Origin: Escherichia phage PSa2
Direction: 5' to 3' (one strand)
DNA: 64,000 nt
Sequence record: OL770310
Shown here: positions 1,979-36,792 of the stretch, piece by piece
How positions within the stretch are numbered: the stretch's first letter is position 1
Layout of the letters: every line of letters starts with the position of its first letter
The notes under the pieces: model-generated
What the model was told of the DNA's origin: nothing
Seen by the model: the letters and a program-made list of their open reading frames with translations, nothing else
The model's database searches: none
Position numbers and translations under genes: made by a program

Positions 1979-2235
1979 TCAATTTCAAGCCAAAAACCTT
2001 CACGCTGCTCATACTTAGCTTCCACAACATAACCTAGTTTACTAAGTTTTTGCATGACGCTATTTCTAGCGTTTTCTGAGTATTCAGTCAGTCCCTGGAT
2101 GTGGCAATTAAATTCTTTATCTTTGATGGCTTTGTCAATCTCTACGGCAATAAGTGACTCTAAGTCAATTACTTCCTTTTTAATACTAGCAATAGTATTT
2201 TGTTTTGCTTCTAAAGCAGATAAAAGAATAGACAT
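1966..2235 (-). CDS. hypothetical protein
   Basis: 89 aa ORF, start/stop coupled to neighbours. Confidence 0.45.
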   Translation of the reverse strand: MSILLSALEAKQNTIASIKKEVIDLESLIAVEIDKAIKDKEFNCHIQGLTEYSENARNSVMQKLSKLGYVVEAKYEQREGFWLEIDWSK

Positions 2236-14927: not shown

Positions 14928-15423
14928 ATTTATATTGAATTGAGAGACATTAGTAAAAATTGATTTTGCTAATTTTTCTTGTTTACAATCCGCAATACGG
15001 AACAGTTAGGCTGCCCCATTAAGGGTTGTTTTAACTATTACTAGTGTTTATACTGCATTAGTTAATTATCAATTAAGTGATCTGCGTACCCTGAATTCGG
15101 AAAGGTAAATCCAAACCGTGCATATTTAGCTCGTTATATAGGCAGAGCTTTATATGGGGGTGCGAACGAAAAGAGCAGCGAATGGTGACACGTCCAGTAG
15201 CCACCTACCAATAGGATAGTGAGGGCAATCAGAATCGGCTTAGCGGCCAATGACCTAGGTTCTGATCTGGATAAGAGTTAAGAGAGCGCAGCACTGAGGT
15301 ATGATAACTTATTCATACTGCTTGATGATGATTAATGTTTGTGTAAATGGTAGTAATAGTTGTTCTATTCTTTTGAATAGTCCTAAAGAAAGATATTCGA
15401 ATAACCAACATAGGAGTATTGTT

Positions 15424-18213
15424 GTGTTCTCAATCCTACAAGGCCACGCAGGATTTTCCAGAGATAAAGCTACTGGCATCTGGAAAGAGATCAAAGTGGA
15501 AGATTATACCTTTGCAAAGCGATTCTCTAAAGAGCATCCAGAAGGTAAACCAGCTTCCATGCCCTTCAAATTTGATGTACTTGAAGAACTTGACCCGCAA
15601 AACCTTGCTGAAATGTTACCTATCATGCGTCGTCTTACCAAAGACCCGCATATTGTAGCTATTCGGGGTAAATGTCTAGCTCCAAAAGATAATGTGCGTC
15701 GTACCAGGGGAAACTTTAACGTATCCAATCCTAGTCATATTATTGCTATGGACGTGGATGGTATTGTAGATACTGGTGGCTATGACAAGTTTAATCTTGT
15801 TGGCATGGCACGTCATATTATTAAGATGTTGAATAGTATTAGTGAGGATATGTTTCCTCTTGATGCAGGGTTTATTGCCCATGCATCGTCTTCGGCTGGG
15901 TTAAAACCAGGTATCCGAATGCACTTAATGCTAGAATCTAATGTCAAGGTAACGCAGGGACAGTTAAAGTTCTTATTTACATCTATCAATGATAGTAGTA
16001 AGCAAAAGTACGGCTTTGATATTGCTGACTTAGCTTATTATTCTTCTGTTCAGCTTCACTATTTCGCAGATCCCTTATTTGATGATGGTATAGTCGATCC
16101 GTTTAAAGCGGAGAATAAACCACGTCTTGTGTATGTTAAGGGTTCGAAGGTAAATCTACCTAATAACCTAGTTGACTTTGAAACAACTAGAGGTGAGTTT
16201 AAAGAAGAGTTCTACTCCTTACTTGACCAAATTAAAGGCAAGAAGGCTGCATCTGATAAAGTGGAAGAAACCATCAGCGAACTAGAAGAAGCTGAGGATG
16301 GAGTGTACCTGCGTATTATTCCAAAACTTTATCACAGAGCGTTAGAAGATGGTGTTGACTTTACGTGGTTAGAACGTGAGATTAAACCAGCTTTATCTGA
16401 GTATATTGCGACTAAAGATAATAGTCGTAATATTCAAGATTACTTTAATAACGGTCGTAAGCAGGCTCTCAAAGCCTTTGTAAATAACTCCAAACGTGAG
16501 ATTCCACCAAACTTAAAAGGTGTACCATTAAAACGTCTAGACACAGATTCTCCACCAGAAGTTCCATACCTGAAAATTAACATTGTACCACCAAAAGGAC
16601 ATTTAACATTTGTTAAGGCAAGTCTTGGTACGGGTAAAACTACAGCAGTAACTAAGTGGCTAGATGCAGGTGTTCTTCCAGGGAACTTTATTGCAATCAC
16701 AAATACTAGAGCACTTGTATCTTCTAACGCGAAGAAATTCGGTGCTGGCCAGTATGATAAGTCAGTTGATATGCTGAACTTCAAACGTGGTGCTATTGAT
16801 CGTATGTCTTCAACTATTCACTCTATCCATAAGTTCAAGAGCTTTGTGGGTCAGATTGATACGATCTTTATTGATGAATGTGACGCAGTAATGAATGATC
16901 TGTTATTCGCTCCGGTTGTTAAAAACCGTCGTGAATGTATTCAGGTTCTTCGTGATATCCTTATTACTGCTAAAACTGTTATCTTATCTGATGGTGATAT
17001 CAGTGCAGAAACGATTGAAGCCTATGGTTCTTTGATTGATTTTGATAAACCAGTTGCATTCTATAATCATCACCGTAAAATGCTGGCGAAAGCTCACGCT
17101 TATGAATTCCCTGACGAATCCAGTATTTGGGTTGCACTTCAAACATCTCTAGAGATGGGTGAGAAGTCAATCCTAGTATCTGACTGTGGACCAGATGAAC
17201 TGAATGAAAAGGGAATGGCGTTACGTCGTAATACTGGTGCGTTAGTTAAAGAAATTCACTCAAACTCTACGTCTGATATAGATATCCGACGTATTCTGGA
17301 TTATACAACTAATGAGCTAATTGATCAACAGATTGATTGTTTGTTATGTAGTCCATCTGTAACGAGTGGTGTTGACTTTAACTATTTTGATAACGTATTC
17401 GTAATCACTAGAACCTCAAACCAAGCGCCAAACATGCGTTTTCAAGCAATCAGGCGCGACCGTGGTGCTCAGAACATTTATTATTTTATTGATAAATCTA
17501 CGAGTGGATTCTCTGCGGGTTCCGAGCAATATAATATTGACGAGGGTTGGATTGAGTTAGCTCAGCAACTGTACGCACGCCGTCGTGAGCTGGAATCTAG
17601 AAACTATACTAGTACTTTGCGCTATTATCTGCTTGATCAGGGTGCAACTATCGATATTTTCAGCGAAAGCTGGGGAACTATCGAAGGTGCAGGAAAAGAG
17701 TATACAGAAGAGCGAATCAAAGCTATTTTGCACTCAACTCCTGAATATTGTGCACCACGTCATGCAGATGCCTATGAAGCCAAGTTACTTCTGGTTCGCT
17801 ATTATCATCTGGATTCTATTAAAGATGTAACAGTGGAACACGTTGAACAGTATATCAAGGATAAACCAAACGATAGAGCTGCATTCTTCCATAAGATGCA
17901 CGAGATGTTCTGGGAAGATATTAAGAAGTGTTCAAATGTAACAATCAAACCGTTTATTGAAGCTCTTAAGAATAAGAAGAAGGATTTCTTCCTTAAGACA
18001 GGTCAGAGCGCTAACCCAAAATATGCTCGTATGTATCTTGGCATGATGGGTATCGGTAAAGATCTGGATACGGAAAAGATTGTGGACTGGTACAGAACTT
18101 ACTGTAAGATCGAATGTATGCCGATTCCAGTTAAGTTTATGACAGATGAAGAACGTCAGATGCATGAGGAAGCTCTTGCTGAATTGGGGGCTAGAAATGA
18201 CAGCGAAGAATAA
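15424..18213 (+). CDS. SF2 helicase, replication-origin-binding-protein type (ORF track start 15301; GTG 15424 with TAGGAG SD preferred)
   Basis: Walker A KASLGTGKTTAV, Walker B IFIDECDAV; ~930-970 aa. First ~40 track codons are low complexity. Confidence 0.7.
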   Translation: MFSILQGHAGFSRDKATGIWKEIKVEDYTFAKRFSKEHPEGKPASMPFKFDVLEELDPQNLAEMLPIMRRLTKDPHIVAIRGKCLAPKDNVRRTRGNFNVSNPSHIIAMDVDGIVDTGGYDKFNLVGMARHIIKMLNSISEDMFPLDAGFIAHASSSAGLKPGIRMHLMLESNVKVTQGQLKFLFTSINDSSKQKYGFDIADLAYYSSVQLHYFADPLFDDGIVDPFKAENKPRLVYVKGSKVNLPNNLVDFETTRGEFKEEFYSLLDQIKGKKAASDKVEETISELEEAEDGVYLRIIPKLYHRALEDGVDFTWLEREIKPALSEYIATKDNSRNIQDYFNNGRKQALKAFVNNSKREIPPNLKGVPLKRLDTDSPPEVPYLKINIVPPKGHLTFVKASLGTGKTTAVTKWLDAGVLPGNFIAITNTRALVSSNAKKFGAGQYDKSVDMLNFKRGAIDRMSSTIHSIHKFKSFVGQIDTIFIDECDAVMNDLLFAPVVKNRRECIQVLRDILITAKTVILSDGDISAETIEAYGSLIDFDKPVAFYNHHRKMLAKAHAYEFPDESSIWVALQTSLEMGEKSILVSDCGPDELNEKGMALRRNTGALVKEIHSNSTSDIDIRRILDYTTNELIDQQIDCLLCSPSVTSGVDFNYFDNVFVITRTSNQAPNMRFQAIRRDRGAQNIYYFIDKSTSGFSAGSEQYNIDEGWIELAQQLYARRRELESRNYTSTLRYYLLDQGATIDIFSESWGTIEGAGKEYTEERIKAILHSTPEYCAPRHADAYEAKLLLVRYYHLDSIKDVTVEHVEQYIKDKPNDRAAFFHKMHEMFWEDIKKCSNVTIKPFIEALKNKKKDFFLKTGQSANPKYARMYLGMMGIGKDLDTEKIVDWYRTYCKIECMPIPVKFMTDEERQMHEEALAELGARNDSEE

Positions 18214-18439: not shown

Positions 18440-18468
18440 TTGCTTTCAGGAAAAATTTTCTGTATAAT
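18440..18468 (+). promoter_or_regulatory. early promoter module (TTGCTT-N17-TATAAT)
   Basis: -35 18440..18445, -10 18463..18468, leader AGATTCATAAATTTGAGAGAGGAG, ATG 18500. Confidence 0.65.
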
Positions 18469-18499: not shown

Positions 18500-19204
18500 A
18501 TGGCTGGTTCTCGTAGAAAGAAACTTATCCATGAAATCCCTGATGAAACCTTTAAAAAGGTTATTGAACATTTGGAGAATGGTGGTACTAAGAAAGCAGC
18601 ATGTGAAATGCTCGGTGTTTCTTCTAACCCAACTATGGAACGAATGATTGAAGAATGGAGAGATCGTCAGGTTCAGGTTGCGGAAATGAAAAAGAAGAAG
18701 CGTGGAACACTGATTGAAGGTGTTGAGCTTGCAAACGTAATTGAACAGTATCTTTCTGGTGATTCTTTTGAAGAAATCGCAGATCGTAATTATCGTTCTG
18801 TAGCGATGATTAAATCTGTTCTGGAACGTTATGGTGCTCTGCTTCGTTTAAACGATATTGTTGATCCATTGAATCCACCGCTGATTCCTGATGATGCAAT
18901 GGCAGAAGAATTTGAAGTTGGAGAACTTGTTTGGGTTCCTGGCTATCAGTGTATTGGTGAAATCAAGAAAGCAATGACTAATCCAGTTGGCTGCTATCGT
19001 GTTTGGTTGTTATCAGAAGGTAAACAACAGAACGTTCACTATATGCACTACGAATTAGCTTCTGTTAAACATCTGGAAAAGCTGGGTGTTGATGTTAAGG
19101 CTCTGGGCTTTAAGTGGAGTCGTGAAGAAGTTATCACGTTGGTTAATGAAGCTGTTAAAGCTGCCCTGAAACTAGATAAAGAGAAAGGAAAACGTCGTGA
19201 GTAA
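18500..19204 (+). CDS. putative HTH DNA-binding protein
   Basis: 234 aa; N-terminal helix-turn-helix (HTH)-like segment GGTKKAACEMLGVSSNPTMERMIEEW. Confidence 0.55.
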   Translation: MAGSRRKKLIHEIPDETFKKVIEHLENGGTKKAACEMLGVSSNPTMERMIEEWRDRQVQVAEMKKKKRGTLIEGVELANVIEQYLSGDSFEEIADRNYRSVAMIKSVLERYGALLRLNDIVDPLNPPLIPDDAMAEEFEVGELVWVPGYQCIGEIKKAMTNPVGCYRVWLLSEGKQQNVHYMHYELASVKHLEKLGVDVKALGFKWSREEVITLVNEAVKAALKLDKEKGKRRE

Positions 19205-19451
19205 ACTAACTGATCTGTTAAAAGCTGGAGACGTAAAATATCTCCAGCGAGATAGCTGGGAAAATAATGCCTATTCTACCACTATTATCAAAGTAGATGT
19301 TGATAATAATGACATCATAGAATTTACTTGGTGGTGGTCTAAAGATGGGCGTACTAAACTCACGCTAGACGATGCATCGTGGAAAACCACTGAGCTAACT
19401 CTAGACGAAGCTCTGGCCGACGATTGGGAGATCGTTGAACTAGATGTGTAG
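19197..19451 (+). CDS. hypothetical protein
   Basis: 84 aa ORF, start overlapping upstream stop. Confidence 0.45.
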   Translation: MSKLTDLLKAGDVKYLQRDSWENNAYSTTIIKVDVDNNDIIEFTWWWSKDGRTKLTLDDASWKTTELTLDEALADDWEIVELDV

Positions 19452-19471
19452 CAGTTACTGAAAAATTTCAG

Positions 19472-19500
19472 TTGCTTAATCCTGTAATTCTTGATATAAT
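19472..19500 (+). promoter_or_regulatory. early promoter (TTGCTT-N17-TATAAT)
   Basis: -35 19472..19477, -10 19495..19500; ATG at 19559. Confidence 0.6.
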
Positions 19501-19558
19501 ATTCTCATAGTTTGAAAGAACTATTCTGTTTAATTCTTAATTAAGGAAATCGAAAAAT

Positions 19559-19969
19559 ATGACTACTCCAACTCAGTGGACTGATGAACTGTTCGAAAAA
19601 ATGTCTTCCGACTACGTTGCTCGTATGGAGCAATTCCCAGAAGATGAGCGTCCGGGCGTTAGCATGGAAATTGTTAGCGAAATTGCTCAGGAAAATGGTG
19701 TAACTCCGAACGGTTTCCGTATGAAGCTGACCAAAGCAGGTCTGTATATCAAGAAAGCTGCTGGCTCTACTTCTAAATCAAGCGCATCTACTGGAGAAAA
19801 AGCTTCTGGTGGTTCTCGTACTTCCAAAGCTCAGGCTCACTCCGATCTTCGCTCTGCATTCTCTGATGCTGGCTTAGCCCCGGACTTCCTGGACGACGCA
19901 ATCATCGACAAGCTGACCGGTAAAGCAGCTGCTCATCTGGCAGAAGCTATCCGAGCTATCACTAAGTAA
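19559..19969 (+). CDS. hypothetical protein with one HTH-like repeat, host-like codon usage
   Basis: SEIAQENGVTPNGFRMKLTKAG matches the repeat unit of the 22695..23462 protein; CTG/CGT/GGT-rich codons. Confidence 0.55.
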   Translation: MTTPTQWTDELFEKMSSDYVARMEQFPEDERPGVSMEIVSEIAQENGVTPNGFRMKLTKAGLYIKKAAGSTSKSSASTGEKASGGSRTSKAQAHSDLRSAFSDAGLAPDFLDDAIIDKLTGKAAAHLAEAIRAITK

Positions 19970-20005
19970 TTCTTAGATAAATCCACCAACACAAGGAATA
20001 CAGTT

Positions 20006-20302
20006 ATGAATAAAGCTGAAATTATTGCTCAATGCGAAAAATTTGGTGAGTTTTATCTTCATTACGAAAAACTTCGTCAGAAAGGAACCACGTACCTTCA
20101 GGGTACGATGGAATTTGATCCAGCTCAGGATAAATACCTGGCTGAGCGTATTAAACGTGAGCGCATCCGTAAGCCGAAAGAAGATGAAATCCTCGTTTTC
20201 TCTCGTACTAACGATAGCTTCCGTTTCATTCCTGTTGCGAAAGTTCGCCGTGTGACGAGCCTCCAGTCAGAGTTAGATCGTGCTTCTCCAGTAGGCCGAT
20301 AA
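20006..20302 (+). CDS. hypothetical protein
   Basis: 98 aa ORF followed by a terminator hairpin. Confidence 0.5.
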   Translation: MNKAEIIAQCEKFGEFYLHYEKLRQKGTTYLQGTMEFDPAQDKYLAERIKRERIRKPKEDEILVFSRTNDSFRFIPVAKVRRVTSLQSELDRASPVGR

Positions 20303-20312
20303 GAAACCAATT

Positions 20313-20340
20313 AGCCCCTATATGGGGCTTTTTGTGTATT
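20313..20340 (+). terminator. rho-independent terminator
   Basis: AGCCCC-TATAT-GGGGCT hairpin followed by TTTTGTGTATTT. Confidence 0.6.
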
Positions 20341-20352
20341 TGGGATATGTAA

Positions 20353-20661
20353 ATGAGCGATCAGGTAAATCAAAACTATGAAGGACACATTGACGACCAG
20401 TCCATCATGCTTTGGGAGAAGGACGGGGAACAAGTAAGACTAACCGTATCTGAATTTCGTGGGAATCTATACATGGGAATTCGTTACTGGCTCCAAGATA
20501 TTACTGGAGAGTGGTTTCCAACGAAATCCGGCTTCTCTTTTCCTTATACCCTAGAAACTACATCACATCTATTTTACGCTTTTACGCAAATCCTCAGTGA
20601 ATCCGAGGTCTTGCATGAAGTACAGAAACGAGCTAAAGAACTCAAAGCCAAGAATGCCTAG
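20353..20661 (+). CDS. hypothetical protein
   Basis: 102 aa ORF. Confidence 0.5.
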   Translation: MSDQVNQNYEGHIDDQSIMLWEKDGEQVRLTVSEFRGNLYMGIRYWLQDITGEWFPTKSGFSFPYTLETTSHLFYAFTQILSESEVLHEVQKRAKELKAKNA

Positions 20662-20680
20662 TTCTTGGCTTTTTCTTTAT
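20646..20680 (+). terminator. rho-independent terminator overlapping stop codon
   Basis: AGCCAAGAA...TTCTTGGCT stem followed by TTTTTCTTT. Confidence 0.6.
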
Positions 20681-20688
20681 AAATGTAC

Positions 20689-20717
20689 TTGCTTTAGACT
20701 CAGTTTTGTTATATAAT
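20689..20717 (+). promoter_or_regulatory. early promoter module (TTGCTT-N17-TATAAT)
   Basis: -35 20689..20694, -10 20712..20717, leader ATTTATATAAATTGATGAGAGAT, ATG 20749. Confidence 0.65.
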
Positions 20718-20748
20718 ATTTATATAAATTGATGAGAGATATAAATAA

Positions 20749-21720
20749 ATGACTAATGTAAAAGAATTTATTAAACGCTGTCAAGAAGCATATTATCAAG
20801 GTATGTCTTTAATCTCTGACGAAGAATATGATCGTCTGATTAAAAGATTCCCACTAGAGGAAGAAATCGGACCGAAAGGTGATATTCCTCATTTGTATCG
20901 TATGTATTCTTTGCAGAAAGTCTATTACGGTCGCGGTGATAAAGCTCCATTCAATCCATTAGGTCAGGTTGAAACTGATAAGTTAGATGGTTGTGCGATT
21001 TCTCTATTATATATTAATGGTGAATTTGTTCAAGCGTTAACTCGTGGTAACGGTATTCTAGGGAATGATGTAACGCATAATGTTAAAATGCTGAACATCC
21101 CCAAAACTATTTCCCAAAAAGTACCAACTCAAATCACTGGTGAAGTTCTCATTACTAAAGAAGTAGAGAACAAACGTAACTACGCTTCGGGTGCTATTAA
21201 CCTGAAAGACAGCGATGATTTCATCCAACGTATTGGTGAAGGTGGTTTAATCTTCGTTGCATACGGTATCCAGTGTTCAGCGGAAACAGTCGGTATTACA
21301 GAAGCCTATTTAAAAGATATGCTTTGGCTAGAGAATGAGAACTTCTTGACAGTTGTTAATGTTCGTTCCTTTTTTAAATGGATTCCGACGGACGGTAAAG
21401 TTGTTCGTATTAACGACAACAATAAATTCTTCCGTGAAGGTTGGACTAATAAATTTCCTCGTGGTGCATTTGCTATTAAAGAGGATGAAGAAGGCGAAAT
21501 TACCACACTTGTTAAAGTTGAATGGCAAGTAGGGGCTTCTGGTAAAGTAACTCCAGTTGGTTATTTCGAACCGGTGATTATTGATGATGCCACAATCGTT
21601 AAAGCAACTCTTAATAACGTTGATTATATTAACGCTCTCGATTTAGAGATCGGTTGCCAGATTCGAGTGATTCGTGCTGGTGGTGTAATCCCTTGTATAG
21701 TAGAGCGAGTATACGACTAA
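20749..21720 (+). CDS. NAD-dependent DNA ligase, N-terminal adenylation half
   Basis: Adenylation motif ETDKLDGCAISLLY (KxDG) and NAD-ligase Ia-like N-terminus. Confidence 0.8.
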   Translation: MTNVKEFIKRCQEAYYQGMSLISDEEYDRLIKRFPLEEEIGPKGDIPHLYRMYSLQKVYYGRGDKAPFNPLGQVETDKLDGCAISLLYINGEFVQALTRGNGILGNDVTHNVKMLNIPKTISQKVPTQITGEVLITKEVENKRNYASGAINLKDSDDFIQRIGEGGLIFVAYGIQCSAETVGITEAYLKDMLWLENENFLTVVNVRSFFKWIPTDGKVVRINDNNKFFREGWTNKFPRGAFAIKEDEEGEITTLVKVEWQVGASGKVTPVGYFEPVIIDDATIVKATLNNVDYINALDLEIGCQIRVIRAGGVIPCIVERVYD

Positions 21721-21770
21721 TTCGTAACCCTTTGCTACCCGTTTACCATGTCGGAATTATAAAGTGGTTA

Positions 21771-21799
21771 TTGACATTTTCGCCGCTTAGGTATATACT
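21771..21799 (+). promoter_or_regulatory. promoter between ligase halves (TTGACA-N17-TATACT)
   Basis: -35 TTGACA 21771..21776, -10 TATACT 21794..21799; only an 8-codon ORF downstream. Confidence 0.45.
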
Positions 21800-21863
21800 A
21801 TTATCATTCAGTTGAGGGATAGAAAGTTATGGCGAGGGTAAGCAAAGTTAGTTAAAATTGTAG

Positions 21864-21892
21864 TTGCTAAATGCTTAAATACTTGCTATAAT
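21864..21892 (+). promoter_or_regulatory. early promoter module (TTGCTA-N17-TATAAT)
   Basis: -35 21864..21869, -10 21887..21892, leader ATTTATATAAATTGATAAGGAAG, ATG 21920. Confidence 0.6.
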
Positions 21893-21919
21893 ATTTATAT
21901 AAATTGATAAGGAAGAAAT

Positions 21920-22702
21920 TTGATGAAAATCGAAATTCCAACACAATGTCCCTCTTGTGGTTCTAAGCTAGATCTTGTCAACGGGCAATTATTCTGTAGG
22001 AATAAGTCCAACTGTCCAGCGCAATCAAGTAAGTTAATCGAGAACTTCTGCACAAAAATGAAGTTAAAGGGCTTTGGCCCGAAAACTATTGAGAAGCTGG
22101 AGCTGACTAAGATCTCAGAACTGTTTTACCTGACCGAAGAAGATTTGGTAGGAGCTGTGGGTAGCAAGGTTGCCGCTAAATTGATTAGCGAGTTAAATAC
22201 TAAGGTTCGCGGAGACATTGACTTTGGTTCAGTTCTCGGTTCTTTAGGAATTCCTCTTATTGGAGAGGTTGCAGCAAAGAAACTGTCCCAAAATTGCACT
22301 AGCTTCCACGATGTGAAGGCTGACGGCAAGGCTGGAGAAAATTACAAAACCTGGCTAAATTCCCCACAAGGCAAGGATGTTATTGAATTACCGTGGAAAT
22401 TCTCAACTGGTATCCGAGGTGCTAAAGCTGACATCATCATTACAGATGATTTAGTTGCCCAGCCAAATGGAATCACGGTCTGTATTACCGGATCTTTGCA
22501 AGATTTTGCAAATCGAACGGATGCAACAAACTATTTAGAAAGTCTAGGGTATACGGTTAAGAAGTCCGTTACCAAAGACGTCAAATACCTAATCTGTGAG
22601 GATGAATCAAAACGTTCTTCCTCATCTTATAAGAAAGCCGAAACGAATGGGATAGAAATCCTGTCGATTAAAGAACTATTGGAGAAAAATAATAATGTCT
22701 AA
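21920..22702 (+). CDS. NAD-dependent DNA ligase, C-terminal half (Zn finger / HhH / BRCT-like)
   Basis: Cys4 zinc finger CPSCGSKLD...CRNKSNCPAQ typical of LigA, in a separate ORF from the adenylation domain. Confidence 0.8.
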   Translation: MMKIEIPTQCPSCGSKLDLVNGQLFCRNKSNCPAQSSKLIENFCTKMKLKGFGPKTIEKLELTKISELFYLTEEDLVGAVGSKVAAKLISELNTKVRGDIDFGSVLGSLGIPLIGEVAAKKLSQNCTSFHDVKADGKAGENYKTWLNSPQGKDVIELPWKFSTGIRGAKADIIITDDLVAQPNGITVCITGSLQDFANRTDATNYLESLGYTVKKSVTKDVKYLICEDESKRSSSSYKKAETNGIEILSIKELLEKNNNV

Positions 22703-23462
22703 ACTGAACTGGAACGTAGAAGGTGTAACCGAGTCTCTGAAAGCAAAAGCCACTGCTCTGGGTGTTGCTGTAATCTCTCAAGAACAAGTAGCTGCTATCG
22801 CTGCTGAACTGGCTACCGAGACTGGTAAAGACGTTACCGCTCGCTCTGTTGGCTCTAAGCTGCGTAAAGAAGGTTTCGAAGTACAGAAAGCTAACGAAGT
22901 ACAGAAATCCCCGTGGACTCCTGAGCAGGAAGCTGAACTGGTTGATTTCCTGAACGCTCATGCGGGTCAGTATACTTACGCTGAAATCGCTGCTGCTGTA
23001 GCTGGTGGTCAGTTCGGTGCTAAGCAGGTTCAGGGTAAGATCCTGAGTCTGGAAATGACTGCTTCTGTTAAGCCAACCGAAAAAGCTGCTGCTGTTCGTT
23101 CCTTCACTCCTGACGAAGAAACTGATTTCGTTAATCAGGTTGTTGCTGGTGCTACTATTGAAGCTATCGCTGCTCACTTTGGTCGCAATATTAAGCAGAT
23201 CCGTGGTAAAGCTCTGAGTCTGCTTCGTGAAGGTCGTATCGCTGCTATGCCGGTACAGGAAACTTCAAGTGCTAAAACTCGTGAAGATCTGTTAGAAGGT
23301 CTGGATCTGGCTAACATGACTGTTGCTGAGATCGCTGAGAAAACTGGTAAGTCTGAGCGCGGTGTTAAATCTATGCTGTCTCGTCGTGGTCTGGTTGCTA
23401 AGGACTATGATGGTGCCGCTAAGCGTGCTAAACTGGATGCAAAAGCTGCGGCTGCTGAATAA
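22695..23462 (+). CDS. protein with four tandem HTH-like repeats, host-like codon usage
   Basis: Four ~35 aa repeats (AAIAAELATETGKDVTARSVGSKLRKEG / AEIAAAVAGGQFGAKQVQGKILSL / EAIAAHFGRNIKQIRGKALSLLREG / AEIAEKTGKSERGVKSMLSRRG). Confidence 0.6.
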   Translation: MSKLNWNVEGVTESLKAKATALGVAVISQEQVAAIAAELATETGKDVTARSVGSKLRKEGFEVQKANEVQKSPWTPEQEAELVDFLNAHAGQYTYAEIAAAVAGGQFGAKQVQGKILSLEMTASVKPTEKAAAVRSFTPDEETDFVNQVVAGATIEAIAAHFGRNIKQIRGKALSLLREGRIAAMPVQETSSAKTREDLLEGLDLANMTVAEIAEKTGKSERGVKSMLSRRGLVAKDYDGAAKRAKLDAKAAAAE

Positions 23463-23479
23463 TCTGGTAAATTAAACCT

Positions 23480-23511
23480 AAGGGGAGGGGGCTATGCTCC
23501 TTCCCCTTTTT
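23480..23511 (+). terminator. rho-independent terminator (imperfect stem)
   Basis: AAGGGGA...TCCCCTT stem followed by TTTTT; a second GAAA-loop hairpin GCACGAAAGCGTGC at 23521..23534. Confidence 0.5.
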
Positions 23512-23544
23512 GCATTTAGAAGGCACGAAAGCGTGCAAAGGAGA

Positions 23545-25017
23545 ATGACCTTGTTTAACGTGCAAGCTGTAGTGTTGAAGATGCTTCTCGCTTCTGAACA
23601 GAAGCAAATAGCATTGGAAACATTCTCAAAACTGCATAAAGATCATTTTAATGACGCTTTCTCCTCAATTTACCAAGCCGTCCAGAATTATTATAAGAAA
23701 TATAACGCAATGCCGTCCATTGACGCACTGATGCTTGAGGCCAATAGGAACGCCCGCCTTTCTCAAGCTCTTGTCGTCTTAGCTAACACTCAAATTCCAG
23801 AAGTGAGCATGGAACAGGCGCTTGAAGTCCTAGAAGCCGAATATACACAGGATCTATTCCTGAAACTTCTAGAAACAGACGTGCTTCAAGATTTAACAAT
23901 GCTGGATCAGGGAGAAATTCTCAACCGAGTTGCCTCCCTTCACTTAAAATTAGAAGAGAAAGTAACGAATACTGGAAAGGTATTCAACGCAGACACAATG
24001 CGTATTTTCCAGAGAGAAGAAGATACCAAACTGAACTTGATCGCTCTTGGTATTTGTAATGAGTTCGACGCTCAAATTGGTTTAGCTCGCACAGAAACGT
24101 TACTGCTTGGTGGTTGGCGTGGTACTGGTAAATCCATTATCTGTTCAAACATACAGGTTCAGCAATATTTGAATGGAGACATTGCTCCATATTTCTCAAT
24201 TGAGATGAAGGAGCACGAAGTGTTTAGACGTAATCTGGCTATGTTAGCTGGAGTATCTGCATTAGCAATGCGTAATAACACTCTTGAAGGTGCTGCTCTG
24301 TTGAGATTAGCCAGAACTAGGGCTAGAATGTTTAATGGTGGTGAAGAGCTTTTCGATAACTTCGTTAAGCAATACACTATGGCTAAAATGAGTGACTTCT
24401 ATGATATGGAAAGTAAACTCCTTGAAGGCTATGAGCTTCACACTCCTATGATCATCATTTACGATCCTGAACTGTCTATTACGACGGTTGACGTAGAATT
24501 AAATAAACTAGTTGCTAAATATGGTGATAAGGTTACTGTAGCTCTTCTAGACTATATTAACCAAACAAGACTTCCAGATTCAAAGACCATTGACATGTAT
24601 GACTGGAAAGAACAGATGGTTGTTAGTTCATCTTTCAAATCTATCTGCCAGAAACATAACGTGGCTGGTGTTGCCCCTTACCAGATTGACCAAGATGGTA
24701 GAACGCGTATGTCTAAAGGGATTCTTGATTCCGCAGATATGGCTGCTAATCTTAACGCTGCAAAAGCTGATAATGGTCAAGGTGCTATTATGTTTGATTT
24801 CGTTAAGACTCGTTCCTCTGATAGTGTGAAGTTTATGCCTAAGATGAACTGGGAAACTCTACGAATGGATAACACTACCAACCTAGCAATGGAAGATATT
24901 GCGCAAATGGAAGCTGAGTTCGTTATTCCTATTGAAAAGGATAAACCAGCTCAACCTAAACGTGCTAAGAAAGACAAAGCTGAAAATTCAACAGGTGAAC
25001 AGGCCAGCGATATATGA
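23545..25017 (+). CDS. DnaB-like replicative helicase (track start 23494; AAGGAG-supported start 23545)
   Basis: RecA-fold P-loop GGWRGTGKS; track N-terminus overlaps terminator hairpins. Confidence 0.75.
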   Translation: MTLFNVQAVVLKMLLASEQKQIALETFSKLHKDHFNDAFSSIYQAVQNYYKKYNAMPSIDALMLEANRNARLSQALVVLANTQIPEVSMEQALEVLEAEYTQDLFLKLLETDVLQDLTMLDQGEILNRVASLHLKLEEKVTNTGKVFNADTMRIFQREEDTKLNLIALGICNEFDAQIGLARTETLLLGGWRGTGKSIICSNIQVQQYLNGDIAPYFSIEMKEHEVFRRNLAMLAGVSALAMRNNTLEGAALLRLARTRARMFNGGEELFDNFVKQYTMAKMSDFYDMESKLLEGYELHTPMIIIYDPELSITTVDVELNKLVAKYGDKVTVALLDYINQTRLPDSKTIDMYDWKEQMVVSSSFKSICQKHNVAGVAPYQIDQDGRTRMSKGILDSADMAANLNAAKADNGQGAIMFDFVKTRSSDSVKFMPKMNWETLRMDNTTNLAMEDIAQMEAEFVIPIEKDKPAQPKRAKKDKAENSTGEQASDI

Positions 25018-29024: not shown

Positions 29025-30373
29025 AGGTTGTTATATCTAATAAAGCCTATTTCAAGCCCGATGATGAACTCTGGGATTACTGTAGTAAGCAAACCACTTA
29101 TCACATCGAGACAATGACTAGTAAATACCCTATTATGTATAAGAATAGTGGTGTTGTTGCTAAAGAGATTAAGTGGATTCCTATTACGCGTCTGGATTTA
29201 CTAGATGCTAAGGGAGTAAAGTACGAATTAGTTGATAAACGTACGTTAGCTCCGGTAGAAATACCAGAACCTCAGTTCAAACTGCGTGAAGAAGATCAGC
29301 TTCCTATATATGAAGAGTGTGATGATACTTGTATTATCAATGGTAAGCCTGGGTTTGGTAAAACTATCCTAGCTCTTGCTCTTGCATATAAGTTTGGCCA
29401 GAAAACTCTGGTAATCTGCACCAACACATCCATTCGTGAAATGTGGGCTGCAGAAGTTCGTAAATGGTTTGGGTTTGAACCTGGTATTATTGGCTCTGGG
29501 AAGTATAATATTGATCCACCAATCGTGGTCAGTAATATACAAACAGTGAATAAACATGCGAATAATCTTTCTAAAGTGTTCGGTACTGTTATAGTTGATG
29601 AAGTACACCACTGTGTGGCTACAACTTTCACTAATTTCCTAGAGATCTCATGTGCTCGCTATAAGATTGGTCTATCTGGTACGTTAAAGCGTAAGGATGG
29701 CCTGCAAGTTATGTTCAAAGACTTCTTCGGATATAAGATCTTTAGTCCACCCGTTAATAATACTGTTCCACCTACAATCCATAGGTACTCCGTGCCTGTT
29801 GAGTTATCAGGTAACCAAAACGTACCCTGGGCATTACGTGCTAACGATGTGTATAATCATCCTGAATATCGAGAAACTATTATAAACCTAGCGCATTTAT
29901 ATGTGTCTATGGGACATAAGGTTCTCTTTGTAAGTGATAGGACGGAACTAATCCAAACAATACTAGAAGCTCTCGCACAACGTGGTGTTACAACCTATGA
30001 GATTATAGGTGCAACTCCTTTGGATGATCGATTGAGAATCCAGAAAGATGTAGCGGAGGGCGGACCTTGTGTACTTGCAGCAGCTCAGAGTATCTTCTCA
30101 GAAGGTATTTCTCTTAACGAGCTGTCTTGTTTAATAATGGGAAGTCTCATTAATAATGAATCTCTCATAGAACAGTTAGCAGGCCGCGTTCAACGTATTG
30201 TTGACGGAAAGCTAGATCCGATTGTTGTAGATTTAATTATGAAAGGAGGTACTGGTTTAAGACAGGCTTCTGGACGTATGGCCGTGTATCGCAATAATGC
30301 ATGGAAAACTATTACTATGACTCCGGAGAAAGCAGTACAATTAGCTAAAATTGCATTTGGCAACTGCTCATAA
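29021..30373 (+). CDS. SF2 DEAD/DEAH-box helicase
   Basis: Walker A NGKPGFGKT, DEAH-like box VIVDEVHH, motif III-like SGT. Confidence 0.8.
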   Translation: MKVVISNKAYFKPDDELWDYCSKQTTYHIETMTSKYPIMYKNSGVVAKEIKWIPITRLDLLDAKGVKYELVDKRTLAPVEIPEPQFKLREEDQLPIYEECDDTCIINGKPGFGKTILALALAYKFGQKTLVICTNTSIREMWAAEVRKWFGFEPGIIGSGKYNIDPPIVVSNIQTVNKHANNLSKVFGTVIVDEVHHCVATTFTNFLEISCARYKIGLSGTLKRKDGLQVMFKDFFGYKIFSPPVNNTVPPTIHRYSVPVELSGNQNVPWALRANDVYNHPEYRETIINLAHLYVSMGHKVLFVSDRTELIQTILEALAQRGVTTYEIIGATPLDDRLRIQKDVAEGGPCVLAAAQSIFSEGISLNELSCLIMGSLINNESLIEQLAGRVQRIVDGKLDPIVVDLIMKGGTGLRQASGRMAVYRNNAWKTITMTPEKAVQLAKIAFGNCS

Positions 30374-30456
30374 TTATTGTATAATATACACATAAATTTG
30401 AGAGAGAAAGTTTCGGATTGATAAGAAAGTCCGAAGCAGAAAAATAAAAATTGTAC

Positions 30457-30486
30457 TTGTCAAATCCTCCCGATTTAATGTATAAT
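30457..30486 (+). promoter_or_regulatory. early promoter module (TTGTCA-N18-TATAAT); a -10/leader copy without -35 sits at 30380..30410
   Basis: -10 TATAAT 30481..30486, leader ATATATACATAAATTGATGAGAGAC, ATG 30516. Confidence 0.55.
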
Positions 30487-30515: not shown

Positions 30516-30878
30516 ATGAAATTCTTTGATTACGAGAGAATTTACCTCTTAGCTAGAGGAAACTCCGACCTGATTGTCAAGCTATTTAATAGAATGCTTG
30601 CAGAGCCTGATGCTCACCAGTTACTGGTCGGTTCTTCATTCATCTTGAATGAATCAACTATTGTTGATAACCCTTACAAATTGTCTAATAGACAACTGGC
30701 AGAATATCTAGGAATTCTAAGTCTACGAAATTATGCCGAATATAAGTTTACAAACGATCCGAGTTTGGACATGCAATATGTTCCCATATGGATACCACGT
30801 TCTGTAATCGACACTAACCCACTAATTGCAATCAATAAATCGAAGATAATCTTTAAAGAGGAAATAAAATATGGCTAA
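30516..30878 (+). CDS. hypothetical protein
   Basis: 120 aa ORF behind a promoter/leader module. Confidence 0.5.
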   Translation: MKFFDYERIYLLARGNSDLIVKLFNRMLAEPDAHQLLVGSSFILNESTIVDNPYKLSNRQLAEYLGILSLRNYAEYKFTNDPSLDMQYVPIWIPRSVIDTNPLIAINKSKIIFKEEIKYG

Positions 30879-31644
30879 GTCTTGGGGCGAAACTACTGGC
30901 GGTTCTAACGATAAAATCGACTTCCTGAAATTCAACAACGGTGTAACTCGTGTTCGTATCGTTTCTGGTGTTCTTCCACGTTATGTCTACTGGCTGACTA
31001 ACAAAGATGGTAATGCAGCTCCGTTTGAGTGCCTGCGTTTCAACCGTACTAAAGAGAGCTTCGTTCGCGGTAAAGCTGACCCGATTCACGAAATGGGCTT
31101 CTTCGAGAAAGAGCTGGACAAAGATGGTAATCGTGTTCCGCTGAAACCGAAGAAAAACTACATCGCTTTCGTTATCGACCGTTCTGATAACAAACTGAAA
31201 GTTATGGAAGTTAAAGCTACTATCCTGAAAGGCATCCAGTCTATCATGAAGCAGCTTGAATTGGCAGATCCATTCGATATCGATATTTCTATCGAGAAGA
31301 AAGGTAAAGGCTTCGATACTGAGTACGATGTACAGCAGATCGCAGCAATGCAGTTCCAGATGAAACTGAAAGATCCTACCAGTGCTGAATCAAAACTGCA
31401 CGCCGCAGATACTGATATTCTCGGTGAAGCACTGAGTGATGAAAATGGCGATTTCCTGAAGTTCGAAAAAGTTCCTTCTCTGGAAGAAACCTATCCGGTT
31501 CCGTCCTACGAAGAGCAGAAAGAAGCTATTCTCGCCTTCATGGAAGGTCGTGAGAAGCAAGACGGCGGTGACGCTAAGTCTGGTGGTGATGCTGGTTCTC
31601 AGAAAGGCATCGACGCTGAAGCTGCTAGCGATCTGGACGACTAA
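30871..31644 (+). CDS. hypothetical protein with acidic C-terminal tail (possible ssDNA-binding protein), host-like codon usage
   Basis: 257 aa; acidic terminus ...IDAEAASDLDD as in many SSBs. Weak inference. Confidence 0.45.
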   Translation: MAKSWGETTGGSNDKIDFLKFNNGVTRVRIVSGVLPRYVYWLTNKDGNAAPFECLRFNRTKESFVRGKADPIHEMGFFEKELDKDGNRVPLKPKKNYIAFVIDRSDNKLKVMEVKATILKGIQSIMKQLELADPFDIDISIEKKGKGFDTEYDVQQIAAMQFQMKLKDPTSAESKLHAADTDILGEALSDENGDFLKFEKVPSLEETYPVPSYEEQKEAILAFMEGREKQDGGDAKSGGDAGSQKGIDAEAASDLDD

Positions 31645-31652
31645 TAAACCAA

Positions 31653-31679
31653 GGGGAGCTACGGCTCCCTTTCTTTTTA
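31653..31679 (+). terminator. rho-independent terminator
   Basis: GGGAGC-TACG-GCTCCC hairpin followed by TTTCTTTTT. Confidence 0.65.
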
Positions 31680-36284: not shown

Positions 36285-36513
36285 TTTTGCAGATCCTAAT
36301 ATGATAGGAGTAGATGTAGATCAATCTAATTTTTACAAGATTGATGTTAAATACGTTGAACCTGAGAAAATAGTATTGAGAGTTGATGTATCTGGTGTAG
36401 TAGAACAGTGGGATGAAGAAGGGTTTATCGCACTTTGCACTGAATCTCAAGATCCTATGCTTAAAGCCATGCTAGCAGTATATAATTTAGGTATTATTGC
36501 AGGTAGTAGATAA
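36247..36513 (+). CDS. hypothetical protein
   Basis: 88 aa ORF overlapping the dut 3' end, followed by a strong terminator. Confidence 0.4.
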   Translation: MEKAALEAQEVSNFADPNMIGVDVDQSNFYKIDVKYVEPEKIVLRVDVSGVVEQWDEEGFIALCTESQDPMLKAMLAVYNLGIIAGSR

Positions 36514-36520
36514 CAATAAA

Positions 36521-36555
36521 CCCCAGTGGACAATCCACTGGGGTTTTCTTTTATT
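36521..36555. terminator. bidirectional rho-independent terminator at the early/late convergence point
   Basis: CCCCAGTGG-ACAAT-CCACTGGGG hairpin flanked by an A-run and TTTTCTTTTATTT. Confidence 0.75.
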
Positions 36556-36596
36556 TAGTAAGGAGTTGTTTTACTAATTCCTTTATTTTATTAATC

Positions 36597-36611
36597 TTTT
36601 TTTTTTTTTTT
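36597..36611. repeat. T15 homopolymer followed by TGCATTTTGCATTTTGCGTTTT repeat
   Basis: Direct count of 15 consecutive T at 36597..36611. Confidence 0.8.
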
Positions 36612-36792
36612 GAGAGGGTGCAAAACGAACCTCTTGCATTTTGCATTTTGCGTTTTCATATTGTACATAAGAACAGCCTAAGAATCAGTGAACTGTTAAC
36701 ATAGCAGAACACGCGTTGCGTTGCTAGGATAATCAATGTTCAGGCTTGTTTCGCAGCAATATTTTTCAGTGACAGATTGCACTCCACTTATA

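What the first reader, a model, noticed from the sequence alone, without database searches (positions are those of the whole stretch)
19559..23462. HTH-repeat protein family with ribosomal-protein-like codon usage
ORF 22695..23462 contains four tandem ~35 aa repeats with the pattern (A/T)EIA...G.....(V/I)..K.LS....G; ORF 19559..19969 contains one matching unit (SEIAQENGVTPNGFRMKLTKAGL). Both genes, and 30871..31644, use strongly host-preferred codons (CTG, CGT, GGT, AAA, GAA) unlike their AT3-rich neighbours, implying very high expression. Multi-HTH early proteins could be transcription-switch factors or nucleoid/RNAP-binding proteins.
Basis: seen in the sequence. Interest (0 to 1): 0.55.

Follow-up and report, generated by a model that had tools for sequence, protein, structure and literature searches.

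The report
T5 D5/D3 abundant DNA-binding proteins

Summary
The window is an EPS7/T5-like phage (Demerecviridae), 99.7% identical to phages SE24 and EPS7. ORF 22695-23462 is the D5 protein (252/255 residues identical to T5 D5). ORF 19559-19969 is D3. ORF 30871-31644 is D11, labelled a single-strand DNA-binding protein.

Both parts of the observation hold.
- **Codon bias.** D5, D11 and D3 have E. coli CAI values of 0.71, 0.65 and 0.64. They rank 1, 3 and 4 of 68 ORFs; the major capsid gene is second at 0.71 and the median is 0.27. Synonymous resampling gives z = 8.5 to 14.4. The same ranking recurs in a distant Vibrio phage.
- **Repeats.** D5 is four three-helix HTH units (AlphaFold2 pLDDT 90.9). 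The period is about 60-65 aa, not 35. Units 2 and 3 are clear duplicates (hhalign E = 3e-9); the other pairs are weaker. The D3 N-domain matches D5 unit 1 (E = 3e-5).

New here: the 234-aa ORF 18500-19204 (T5.111, labelled "D2/helicase") carries two HTH units collinear with D5 units 3 and 4 (E = 1.5e-6) and shows no helicase features.

The genes sit behind the classic strong T5 promoters PN25, PN26, P28a/b and P31A/B. D5 is already documented as a DNA-binding protein needed for replication, late transcription and early shutoff. A 2026 preprint already describes its HTH fold. Verdict: real, correctly interpreted, already known; the refinements are modest.

The parts
18440..18468 (+). PN25-equivalent early promoter (TTGCTT-17-TATAAT) driving the 234-aa ORF
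   Evidence: The window sequence is almost identical to the T5 region annotated 'promoter P-N 25'.
18500..19204 (+). 234-aa protein (T5.111; labelled 'D2 protein' or 'helicase'). It has two HTH units (about aa 6-117) followed by a C-terminal domain of unknown fold. It is a third member of the HTH-module set.
   Evidence: Profile-profile match to D5 units 3+4: probability 90%, E = 1.5e-6, collinear; the single sequence gives E = 2.1e-5. Pfam gives only weak HTH hits (HTH_28, HTH_58) and no NTPase family. CAI 0.415, rank 12.
19473..19501 (+). PN26-equivalent early promoter (TTGCTT-17-TATAAT) directly upstream of D3
   Evidence: Read. It matches the T5 region annotated 'promoter P-N 26'.
19559..19969 (+). 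D3 protein (T5.113, 136 aa). N-terminal three-helix HTH unit (aa 9-59), disordered Ser/Gly linker (aa 71-86), and a C-terminal three-helix domain with an invariant DKLTGKAA motif.
   Evidence: PHROG 1725, E = 1.3e-49. 133/136 residues identical to T5 D3. AlphaFold2 pLDDT 77.6. N-domain vs D5 unit 1 E = 3.3e-5 and vs unit 4 E = 6e-6. CAI 0.639, z = 8.5.
21771..21892 (+). P28b/P28a-equivalent promoters (21771-21799 and 21864-21892) upstream of ligB-D5
   Evidence: Consensus scan gives 11/12 and 10/12 matches. The positions map onto the T5 features 'P-K 28b' and 'P-K 28a'.
22695..22898 (+). D5 HTH unit 1 (aa 1-68; helices 11-22, 29-43, 49-58)
   Evidence: AlphaFold2 model. Helix 3 (ARSVGSKLRK) has a mean column identity of 0.89.
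22899..23084 (+). D5 HTH unit 2 (aa 69-130; Myb/SANT-like start WTPEQEAEL; helices 76-88, 95-101, 109-118)
   Evidence: Weak Pfam Myb hit (E = 0.0037); 9 of 32 family members hit Myb.
23085..23264 (+). D5 HTH unit 3 (aa 131-190; helices 139-150, 155-162, 166-178), a duplicate of unit 2
   Evidence: hhalign u2 vs u3: probability 96%, E = 3.3e-9. Pfam HTH_23 E = 1.2e-4.
23265..23462 (+). D5 HTH unit 4 (aa 191-255; sigma-70 region-4-like; helices 210-217, 221-231) plus a conserved C-terminal helix 240-254
   Evidence: Pfam Sigma70_r4_2 scores 29.1 bits, above the 25.7 cut-off, and 27 of 32 family members hit it. AlphaFold2 model.
23480..23508 (+). Strong intrinsic-terminator-like hairpin immediately after D5
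   Evidence: 13-bp stem with 8 GC pairs, followed by a T run.
30357..30486 (+). P31A/P31B-equivalent promoters (30357-30385 and 30457-30486) upstream of ORF 30516-30878 and D11
   Evidence: Both match 11/12 consensus positions. They map onto T5 'P31A' and 'P31B'.
30871..31644 (+). D11 (T5.126, 257 aa), labelled single-strand DNA-binding protein. It shares the codon bias but not the HTH module.
   Evidence: PHROG 1607, E = 5e-103. Named D11 in T5 RefSeq. CAI 0.650, z = 12.8. Unrelated to D5, E = 0.64.
31651..31672 (+). Intrinsic-terminator-like hairpin immediately after D11
   Evidence: T5 annotates a terminator at the equivalent place.

Best explanation
The finding covers the orthologues of bacteriophage T5 early genes D3 (T5.113), D5 (T5.118) and D11 (T5.126) in an EPS7-like phage.

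Shown by prediction and profile comparison:
- D5 is a 27-kDa, all-helical string of four three-helix helix-turn-helix (HTH) units. pTM is 0.46, so the relative arrangement of the units is not defined by the model.
- Units 2 and 3 are a clear Myb/SANT-like duplication. Unit 4 is sigma-70-region-4-like.
- D3 carries one such unit, and the neighbouring 234-aa T5.111 protein carries two.

Inferred mechanism:
- D5 is made in bulk and coats the phage's double-stranded DNA.
- It uses all four recognition helices, which are the most conserved parts of the protein.
- It acts as a phage-encoded chromatin-like protein. This would explain why it is needed for replication, for shutting off early promoters and for late transcription.
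- D11 coats single-stranded DNA in the same stoichiometric way.
- Such proteins are needed in structural rather than catalytic amounts. That would explain why all three genes sit behind the strongest T5 early promoters and have been selected to capsid-gene levels of host-optimal codon use.
For: Identity:
- 99.7% nucleotide identity to EPS7 and SE24, with D3, D5 and SSB annotated there.
- 252/255 (D5) and 133/136 (D3) residues identical to T5.
- PHROG 323 'transcriptional regulator, D5-like' E = 1.5e-71, PHROG 1725 and PHROG 1607.
- Gene order conserved in T5 and in Vibrio phage PG07.

Architecture:
- AlphaFold2 pLDDT 90.9, four three-helix units.
- Unit-to-unit hhalign values; Pfam HTH hits on each unit.
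- Helix 3 of the four units holds 21 of 44 columns that are >=90% conserved, against 29 of 211 elsewhere (Fisher p = 2e-6).

Expression:
- CAI, Nc and resampling.
- The same ranking in a phage whose D5 is only 55% identical.
- Promoters PN25, PN26, P28 and P31, and terminators straight after D5 and D11.
- D5 was abundant enough to appear as a major protein in phiR2-01 virion mass spectrometry.

Function:
- T5 RefSeq note and the McCorquodale 1979 citation.
- D5 is monomeric at 26 kDa, toxic when expressed, and binds retron msDNA (shown by mass photometry); an AlphaFold3 model places the contact at an HTH (bioRxiv 10.64898/2026.07.11.737809).
- From my memory, not verifiable here: Rice et al. 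1979 JBC and Fujimura & Roop 1983 J Virol reported cooperative, non-specific double-stranded DNA binding and high abundance.
Against: - No DNA-binding, occupancy or abundance measurement could be made here.
- Engagement of all four HTH units and sequence-independent coating are inferred from conservation and codon bias only.
- D5 is not basic (pI 6.8, net charge about 0), which is unusual for a non-specific DNA coater.
- Apart from u2-u3, the inter-unit similarities (E = 1e-3 to 1e-5) are no stronger than generic HTH resemblance.
- The E. coli codon weights were entered from memory, although the two reference-free measures agree.
Confidence: 0.7

Rival explanations
1. D5 is a sequence-specific transcription factor or sigma-appropriating factor. 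In this reading its sigma-70-region-4-like unit, possibly with the other units, binds particular promoter elements or RNAP (for example the beta-flap or sigma-70). That would redirect the host sigma-70 holoenzyme from early to late T5 promoters, in the way T4 MotA/AsiA or Caulobacter GcrA act.
For: - Pfam Sigma70_r4_2 is above its gathering cut-off on unit 4 (29.1 vs 25.7 bits) and hits 27 of 32 family members.
- T5 early and late promoters are both sigma-70 type and differ mainly in the discriminator. The switch mechanism is stated to be unknown (PMC7472727).
- D5 mutants lack late transcription.
Against: - Capsid-level codon optimisation, conserved across hosts, points to stoichiometric rather than regulatory amounts.
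- There is no sigma region 2 or other RNAP-core-binding region (TIGR02937 scores 15 bits against a 42.9 cut-off).
- The RNAP-associated T5 proteins listed in PMC7472727 (11, 15, 60 and 90 kDa, and gpT5.026) do not include a ~27-29 kDa species.
- D5 is also required for DNA replication.
Confidence: 0.2
2. The host-like codon usage reflects recent horizontal acquisition from an enterobacterial genome, or a local compositional artefact, rather than selection for expression.
For: The three genes are slightly more GC-rich overall (0.46-0.48 against about 0.40 for the window).
Against: - GC3 is low (0.34-0.46) and overlaps the neighbours.
- The preference is for the specific T-ending and CTG codons typical of highly expressed E. 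coli genes.
- The late capsid gene shows the same pattern.
- The same three orthologues are the most biased genes after the capsid gene in Vibrio phage PG07, scored against that phage's own capsid gene.
- In the phage collection, D5 homologues were found in 902 records, mostly named for hosts of T5-like phages (Vibrio, Salmonella, Escherichia, Klebsiella). A bacterial genome collection was not searched.
- ligB, which overlaps D5 and appears to share its transcript, has CAI 0.25.
Confidence: 0.02
3. The 'repeats' are a chance or low-complexity effect of an alanine-rich sequence, and the D3 match is coincidental.
For: - D5 is 17.6% alanine.
- The single-sequence internal alignment is only moderately significant (z = 3.7; 1 of 200 shuffles reaches it).
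- Several unit pairs have weak E-values (1e-2 to 1e-3).
Against: - Profile-level u2-u3 E = 3e-9, with controls at 0.25-0.57.
- A confident AlphaFold2 model shows four equivalent three-helix units.
- Independent Pfam HTH hits fall on each unit.
- Unit HMMs reciprocally pick out D5, D3 and the 234-aa ORF as the best non-self hits among 68 window ORFs.
- The equivalent helix 3 is conserved in every unit.
Confidence: 0.03

Closest known systems
Bacteriophage T5 D5 protein (T5.118; PHROG 323 'transcriptional regulator, D5-like')
   Same: It is the orthologue. 252/255 residues are identical, the length is the same, and it sits at the same position between ligB and the DnaB-like helicase D6. The T5 protein is documented as a DNA-binding protein required for replication, late transcription and early shutoff. 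It was recently described as an HTH-fold trigger of retron-Kva2.
   Different: Nothing substantive. This work adds an explicit four-unit dissection, the u2/u3 duplication, recognition-helix conservation, and capsid-level codon bias conserved across genera.
Bacteriophage T5 D3 (T5.113) and T5.111 ('D2' of the AY543070/RefSeq annotation)
   Same: Both are orthologues: 133/136 and 220/234 residues identical, behind the same PN26 and PN25 promoters. In T5, retron-Kva2 escape mutants carry changes in D2, D3 and D5 at residues that are conserved here.
   Different: T5.111 is labelled 'helicase' in RefSeq and PHROG 3611. I find only two HTH units and no NTPase family or motif. The biochemically characterised 'D2 helicase' of Wong et al. 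2013 is a different, ~929-aa ORF (PMC3632103), which corresponds to window ORF 15301-18213.
Phage-encoded abundant histone-like proteins: phi29 p6 and SPO1 TF1 (comparison from my own knowledge)
   Same: A functional analogy. These are very abundant early proteins that coat phage double-stranded DNA and are needed both for replication and for the early-to-late transcription switch.
   Different: They are not homologous. TF1 has an HU fold and p6 is a small unrelated protein, whereas D5 is a monomeric array of four HTH domains. No sequence or fold relationship was seen or expected.
Multi-HTH DNA-binding arrays: Myb R2R3, Tc3/mariner bipartite domains, Cbp1 CRISPR-repeat-binding protein, SelB winged-helix array
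Sigma-70 region 4.2 / LuxR-type HTH
   Different: No other sigma region is present. TIGR02937 scores 15 bits against a 42.9 cut-off.

Membership tests
T5 D5 protein family (T5.118 / PHROG 323) | Full-length sequence similarity to T5 D5 | tested here: met
   252/255 identical, ungapped. PHROG 323 E = 1.5e-71 over residues 1-253.
T5 D5 protein family (T5.118 / PHROG 323) | Conserved position: overlapping the end of ligB, upstream of the DnaB-like helicase D6 | tested here: met
   Annotated regions of EPS7, SE24, T5 and Vibrio phage PG07.
T5 D5 protein family (T5.118 / PHROG 323) | Double-stranded DNA binding; required for replication, late transcription and early shutoff | not testable with these tools
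   Known for T5 from the literature and the RefSeq note. Assumed for a 98.8%-identical orthologue.
T5 D3 family (T5.113 / PHROG 1725) | Full-length similarity and position behind the PN26 promoter | tested here: met
   133/136 identical. PHROG 1725 E = 1.3e-49. Promoter read.
Tri-helical helix-turn-helix DNA-binding domain (Pfam HTH clan) | Three-helix bundle with a helix2-turn-helix3 motif, present in each repeat | tested here: met
Tri-helical helix-turn-helix DNA-binding domain (Pfam HTH clan) | Profile match above a curated threshold | tested here: inconclusive
   Only unit 4 passes (Sigma70_r4_2, 29.1 vs 25.7 bits). Units 1-3 give sub-threshold HTH_33, Myb and HTH_23 hits. Across 32 homologues, 27 hit Sigma70_r4_2, 19 HTH_23 and 9 Myb.
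Internal tandem-repeat protein (four homologous units) | Units significantly similar to one another in a formal repeat test | tested here: met
   u2-u3 E = 3.3e-9, u3-u4 7.7e-5, u1-u4 3.1e-4; weaker for u1-u2, u1-u3 and u2-u4 (1.8e-3 to 1e-2); controls 0.25-0.57. Single-sequence z = 3.7.
Sigma-70 family sigma factor | Presence of region 2 (core binding and -10 recognition) in addition to region 4 | tested here: not met
   Only region-4-like (and weak region-3) hits on unit 4. TIGR02937 scores 15 bits against a 42.9 cut-off.
Myb/SANT repeat proteins | Pfam PF00249 match above threshold | tested here: not met
   17.8 bits against a 24.4 cut-off on residues 71-100. The motif resemblance W/F-T-P-E-E-E is real, and some homologues score better (best E = 4.2e-6).
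Helicase (label attached to the 234-aa ORF 18500-19204) | P-loop NTPase or helicase domain | tested here: not met
   No NTPase family appears in Pfam or NCBIfam, only HTH hits. No GxxxxGK[ST] motif on reading the sequence. The N-terminal half aligns to D5 HTH units 3+4.
Single-strand DNA-binding protein (label on ORF 30871-31644, D11) | Family profile match; OB-fold | tested here: inconclusive
   PHROG 1607 'SSB' E = 5e-103 and PHROG 1192 'SSB' E = 1.4e-9. There is no Pfam, NCBIfam or PDB sequence hit.
Highly expressed gene class (codon-usage criterion) | CAI in the range of highly expressed host genes and well above the genome background | tested here: met
   CAI 0.64-0.71 against a median of 0.27. 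z = 8.5-14.4. Equal to the major capsid gene. Reproduced with a capsid-referenced index for all three and with Nc for D5 and D11 (D3 ranks 6th here, 7th in PG07), in this window and in a distant relative.

The most novel reading that the evidence does not exclude
T5.111 ('D2'), D3 and D5 may be a paralogous set carrying 2, 1 and 4 copies of one HTH module. They are expressed from the strongest T5 early promoters, and D3 and D5 have capsid-level codon optimisation.

Together with D11 they would form a phage-built chromatin on the only DNA left in the cell after host DNA destruction. Graded occupancy of that chromatin, rather than a dedicated sigma or anti-sigma factor, would then cause the unexplained early-to-late switch at sigma-70 promoters.

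The shared module would also explain why type IX retron escape mutations fall in all three genes.
Probability: 0.25. Interest if true: 0.55.

Novelty: already known. Interest (0 to 1): 0.3.

Why it matters
How T5 switches from early to late genes, when both classes have strong sigma-70 promoters, is still stated to be unknown (PMC7472727). D5 is the classical gene required for that switch.

Three results here give a concrete, testable picture of D5 as a stoichiometric DNA-coating protein rather than a catalytic regulator:
- D5 is four HTH modules.
- All four recognition helices are the most conserved elements of the protein.
- Its gene is codon-optimised to capsid level, and this holds across genera.

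Two practical points follow. The 'helicase' label on T5.111 and PHROG 3611 appears to be a naming error. And the three genes hit in retron-Kva2 escape mutants share one DNA-binding module.

For genome scanning, this is a good positive control: reading the sequence alone recovered a known abundant DNA-binding protein.

Tried and rejected
- **Profile search of PDB sequences.** The only hit was a 52-residue chain named 'engrailed homeodomain' (1y66), at E = 0.0056.
- **D3 C-terminal domain.** It is unrelated to the HTH units (E = 0.25-0.57). I considered a helix-hairpin-helix reading of DKLTGKAA but have no test for it.
- **ORF 30871-31644 as an HTH family member.** Rejected (E = 0.64).
- **PF26822.** It is listed in the precomputed tables for some D3 and some D5 homologues. 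It is not in the local Pfam copy, so its identity could not be checked.
- **Literature.** The primary D5 paper (PMC353123) is not held. Phrase searches for the 1979 and 1983 biochemical papers found nothing relevant. No per-gene codon analysis of T5-like phages was found; there is only a genome-wide CAI in PMC12630848.
- **tRNA genes.** ARAGORN found none in the window, so phage tRNAs could not be related to the bias here.
- **DRT4 trigger paper.** It concerns T5 ORF55, not D5.

Full report
**What the window is.** A megablast of 19400-23600 finds 526 phage records. The best are Salmonella phage SE24 and Escherichia phage EPS7 at 99.7% identity over the whole query. These are T5-like phages (Demerecviridae, Epseptimavirus).
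- In those records, ORF 22695-23462 is 'D5 protein' and ORF 19559-19969 is 'D3 protein' or 'DNA binding protein'.
- ORF 30871-31644 is 'single strand DNA binding protein' in the EPS7 RefSeq record; SE24 calls it hypothetical.
- In the T5 RefSeq record the same three genes are D5 (T5.118), D3 (T5.113) and D11 (T5.126).
- Against T5, the window proteins are 252/255, 133/136 and 219/257 identical, without gaps.
- PHROG profiles agree: PHROG 323 'transcriptional regulator, D5-like' 1.5e-71; PHROG 1725 'DNA binding protein' 1.3e-49; PHROG 1607 'single strand DNA binding protein' 5e-103.

**Codon usage: confirmed.** I called 68 non-overlapping ORFs of at least 60 aa and computed CAI with the Sharp & Li E. 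coli weights. I had to type these from memory because the Biopython table was absent.
- D5 scores 0.712 (rank 1), the major capsid gene 54589-55965 scores 0.709, the 30871 ORF 0.650 and D3 0.639. Everything else is at or below 0.46, and the median is 0.27.
- Redrawing each gene's synonymous codons from the rest-of-window usage gives expected CAI of about 0.32-0.34 and z-scores of 14.4, 12.8 and 8.5. The capsid gene gives 22.
- Per codon, D5 uses CTG for 17 of 19 Leu, CGT for 9 of 12 Arg with no AGA or AGG, GGT for 18 of 19 Gly and GCT for 39 of 45 Ala.
- Two measures that do not depend on my weights agree. An index referenced to the phage's own capsid gene ranks MCP > D5 > D11 > D3. By Wright's Nc, MCP, D11 and D5 are the three most biased ORFs (32.4, 32.6, 33.5); D3 (35.9) ranks 6th of the 66 ORFs scored; the median is 44.8.
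D5 GC3 is 0.34, within the neighbours' range of 0.28-0.42. What differs is which codons are used.
- ligB overlaps D5 by 8 nt and lies behind the same promoters, so it appears to be co-transcribed. It has CAI 0.25, so the bias is gene-specific.

**The bias is conserved, so it is selected.** In Vibrio phage vB_VpS_PG07, D5 is only 55% identical and the gene order is the same.
- Scored against that phage's own capsid gene, the orthologues of D5, D11 and D3 rank 2, 3 and 4 of 39 genes, directly after the capsid gene.
- D5 and D11 rank 2 and 3 by Nc.
- This rules out recent acquisition from a host.
- Between this phage and T5, D5 differs at only 20 third-codon positions in 255 codons. The 234-aa ORF differs at 79 of 234 and D11 at 71 of 257.

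**Expression signals.**
- The window carries near-exact copies of the classical T5 early promoters. PN25 (18440-18468) lies before ORF 18500. PN26 (19473-19501) lies before D3. P28b and P28a (21771-21799, 21864-21892) lie before ligB-D5. P31A and P31B (30357-30385, 30457-30486) lie before ORF 30516 and D11.
- Strong terminator-like hairpins follow D5 (23480-23508) and D11 (31651-31672) immediately.
- D5 and D11 have good Shine-Dalgarno sequences: GGAG and AGAGGA.
- In Yersinia phage phiR2-01, D5 was among the major proteins in mass spectrometry of virion preparations although it is not a T5 virion component (PMC8624392). This fits great abundance.

**Repeats in D5: confirmed, with a different period.**
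- The EIA-type motif occurs at residues 33, 96, 156 and 211.
- The best internal local alignment pairs residues 73-135 with 136-194. It scores 56 against a shuffle mean of 35 (sd 5.6); 1 of 200 shuffles reaches it.
- I aligned 32 homologues down to about 50% identity and compared the four sub-alignments with hhalign. u2-u3 gives probability 96% and E = 3.3e-9. u3-u4 gives 7.7e-5, u1-u4 3.1e-4, u1-u2 1.8e-3, u1-u3 3.3e-3 and u2-u4 1e-2. The unrelated D3 C-terminal domain gives 0.25-0.57 against everything.
- AlphaFold2 on the alignment gives mean pLDDT 90.9 and pTM 0.46. It shows four three-helix units: helices 11-22/29-43/49-58, 76-88/95-101/109-118, 139-150/155-162/166-178 and 205-207/210-217/221-231. 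A C-terminal helix spans 240-254.
- The true period is therefore about 60-65 aa.
- Pfam places a different HTH family on each unit. Sigma70_r4_2 on unit 4 is above its cut-off (29.1 vs 25.7 bits). HTH_23 on unit 3, Myb on unit 2 and HTH_33 on unit 1 are below theirs.
- Across the 32 homologues, 27 hit Sigma70_r4_2, 19 HTH_23 and 9 Myb.
- An honest limit: only u2/u3 are demonstrably duplicates. They share W/F-T-P-E-E-E...EIA...GK.LSL. The other units are related at a level that generic HTH similarity could also give.

**All four recognition helices are under selection.** In the 32-sequence alignment, the third helix of the four units has a mean column identity of 0.80, against 0.58 elsewhere. 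It holds 21 of 44 columns conserved at >=90%, against 29 of 211 elsewhere (Fisher p = 2e-6). Invariant residues include R50, K55, R57, Q113, G114, K115, G171, K172, R230 and R231.

**D3 and a third member.**
- The D3 profile aligns residues 4-71 with D5 1-68 (E = 3.3e-5, probability 72%). The D3 N-domain against unit 4 gives 6e-6.
- The D3 model (pLDDT 77.6) has an N-terminal three-helix unit (9-23, 28-45, 50-59) whose helix boundaries nearly match those of D5 unit 1. A disordered Ser/Gly linker (71-86) follows. A separate C-terminal helical domain carries an invariant DKLTGKAA motif.
Probability is 90% and E = 1.5e-6 profile to profile; the single sequence gives 2.1e-5.
- HMMs of single units, searched against the 68 window ORFs, reciprocally recover D5, D3 and this ORF as the best non-self hits.
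- This ORF is labelled 'helicase' in RefSeq and PHROG 3611. It shows no NTPase family or motif.
- The biochemically studied 'D2 helicase' is the ~929-aa origin-binding-like ORF (PMC3632103), here 15301-18213. The label is probably a name collision.
- ORF 30871-31644 is not related to D5 (E = 0.64).

**What is already known.**
- The T5 RefSeq note calls D5 a DNA-binding protein required for DNA replication and late transcription and involved in shutoff. The source is McCorquodale et al. 1979, cited.
- A July 2026 preprint (10.64898/2026.07.11.737809) identifies T5 D5 as the trigger of a type IX retron. It describes an HTH motif from an AlphaFold3 model, measures a 26-kDa monomer, and reports escape mutations D5 G53D, W74*, V149I and G232D, D3 E30Q and G85D, and D2 E76Q.
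- All of these residues are present at the same positions here. All except V149 lie in invariant or near-invariant columns of my alignments.
- From memory only, Rice et al. 1979 (JBC) and Fujimura & Roop 1983 (J Virol) described cooperative, non-specific duplex binding and high abundance. I could not retrieve these papers.
- The mechanism of the T5 early-to-late switch is still described as unknown (PMC7472727).

**Most likely mechanism.**
- Shown: orthology to D5, D3 and D11; the four-unit HTH architecture (by prediction and profile comparison); extreme and conserved codon optimisation; strong promoters and terminators.
- Known from the literature: DNA binding, and the replication, late-transcription and shutoff phenotypes.
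- Inferred: D5 acts in bulk as a DNA-coating, chromatin-like protein that uses all four recognition helices. D11 does the same on single strands. That stoichiometric demand would explain the capsid-like codon usage.
- The main rival is a specific sigma-region-4-like or GcrA-like promoter or RNAP factor. It keeps about 0.2 probability because unit 4 passes the sigma-70 region 4 threshold and D5 is not basic (pI 6.8).

**Verdict.** However, it describes a protein known since the 1970s whose HTH nature is already in databases and a recent preprint. The increments here are:
- the explicit four-unit dissection;
- the u2/u3 duplication;
- the two-unit T5.111 relative, with its doubtful 'helicase' label;
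- the cross-genus conservation of capsid-level codon bias.

Interest is 0.3.

Noticed in passing
window 18500-19204 (+): The 234-aa ORF is labelled 'helicase' in RefSeq and PHROG 3611 and 'D2 protein' in GenBank. It has two HTH units and no NTPase motif. The characterised T5 'D2 helicase' (Wong et al. 2013) is a different, ~929-aa ORF (window 15301-18213). This looks like a propagated naming error.
   Followed up: yes
window 18440-18468 (+): This is a near-exact copy of PN25, annotated in T5 RefSeq and, from my memory, the T5 promoter used in expression vectors. It lies directly upstream of the 234-aa ORF.
   Followed up: partly
window 20353-20661 (+): A 102-aa ORF matches Pfam PC4 (transcriptional coactivator p15) at E = 1.6e-8, above its cut-off. 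It is the T5 PC4-like ssDNA-binding protein homologue. RefSeq labels it only 'transcriptional regulator'. A terminator-like hairpin at 20644-20672 overlaps its 3' end and stop codon.
   Followed up: partly
window 22695-23462 vs T5 (L004 8311-9078): Synonymous divergence from T5 is much lower in D5 (20 third-position differences in 255 codons) than in the 234-aa ORF (79/234) or D11 (71/257). Either codon selection is strong or there was a recent exchange of this gene.
   Followed up: no
window 19823-19966 (+), D3 residues 89-136: The D3 C-terminal helical domain has an invariant DKLTGKAA motif. It is unrelated to the HTH units. It is possibly helix-hairpin-helix-like, but its function is unknown.
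   Followed up: no
window 23412-23459 (+), D5 residues 240-255: D5 has a conserved C-terminal helix (DYDGAAKRAKLDAK...) after the fourth HTH unit. D237 and G240 are invariant. It could be a protein-protein or cooperativity element.
   Followed up: no
window 20749-21720 and 21920-22702 (+): The NAD-dependent DNA ligase is split into two ORFs (ligA, ligB) about 200 bp apart. The P28a/b promoters lie in the gap.
   Followed up: no
window 1966-2235 (-): An 89-aa ORF of unknown function (PHROG 13270) gives a weak hit to the D5 unit-1 HMM over the recognition-helix region (E = 0.004 among 68 ORFs). It may be another small HTH protein or a chance match.
   Followed up: partly
D3 and D5 homologues P0165, P0167, P0171, P0046, P0050, P0063: The precomputed Pfam column lists PF26822.1 for some D3 homologues and some D5 homologues. 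The family is absent from the local Pfam copy, so its name and extent could not be checked. If it is a real shared family, it would support D3/D5 paralogy independently.
   Followed up: partly
window ~36500-36800: Coding strand and GC skew flip here. Plus-strand early replication genes meet minus-strand late structural genes. No tRNA genes occur anywhere in the window.
   Followed up: no
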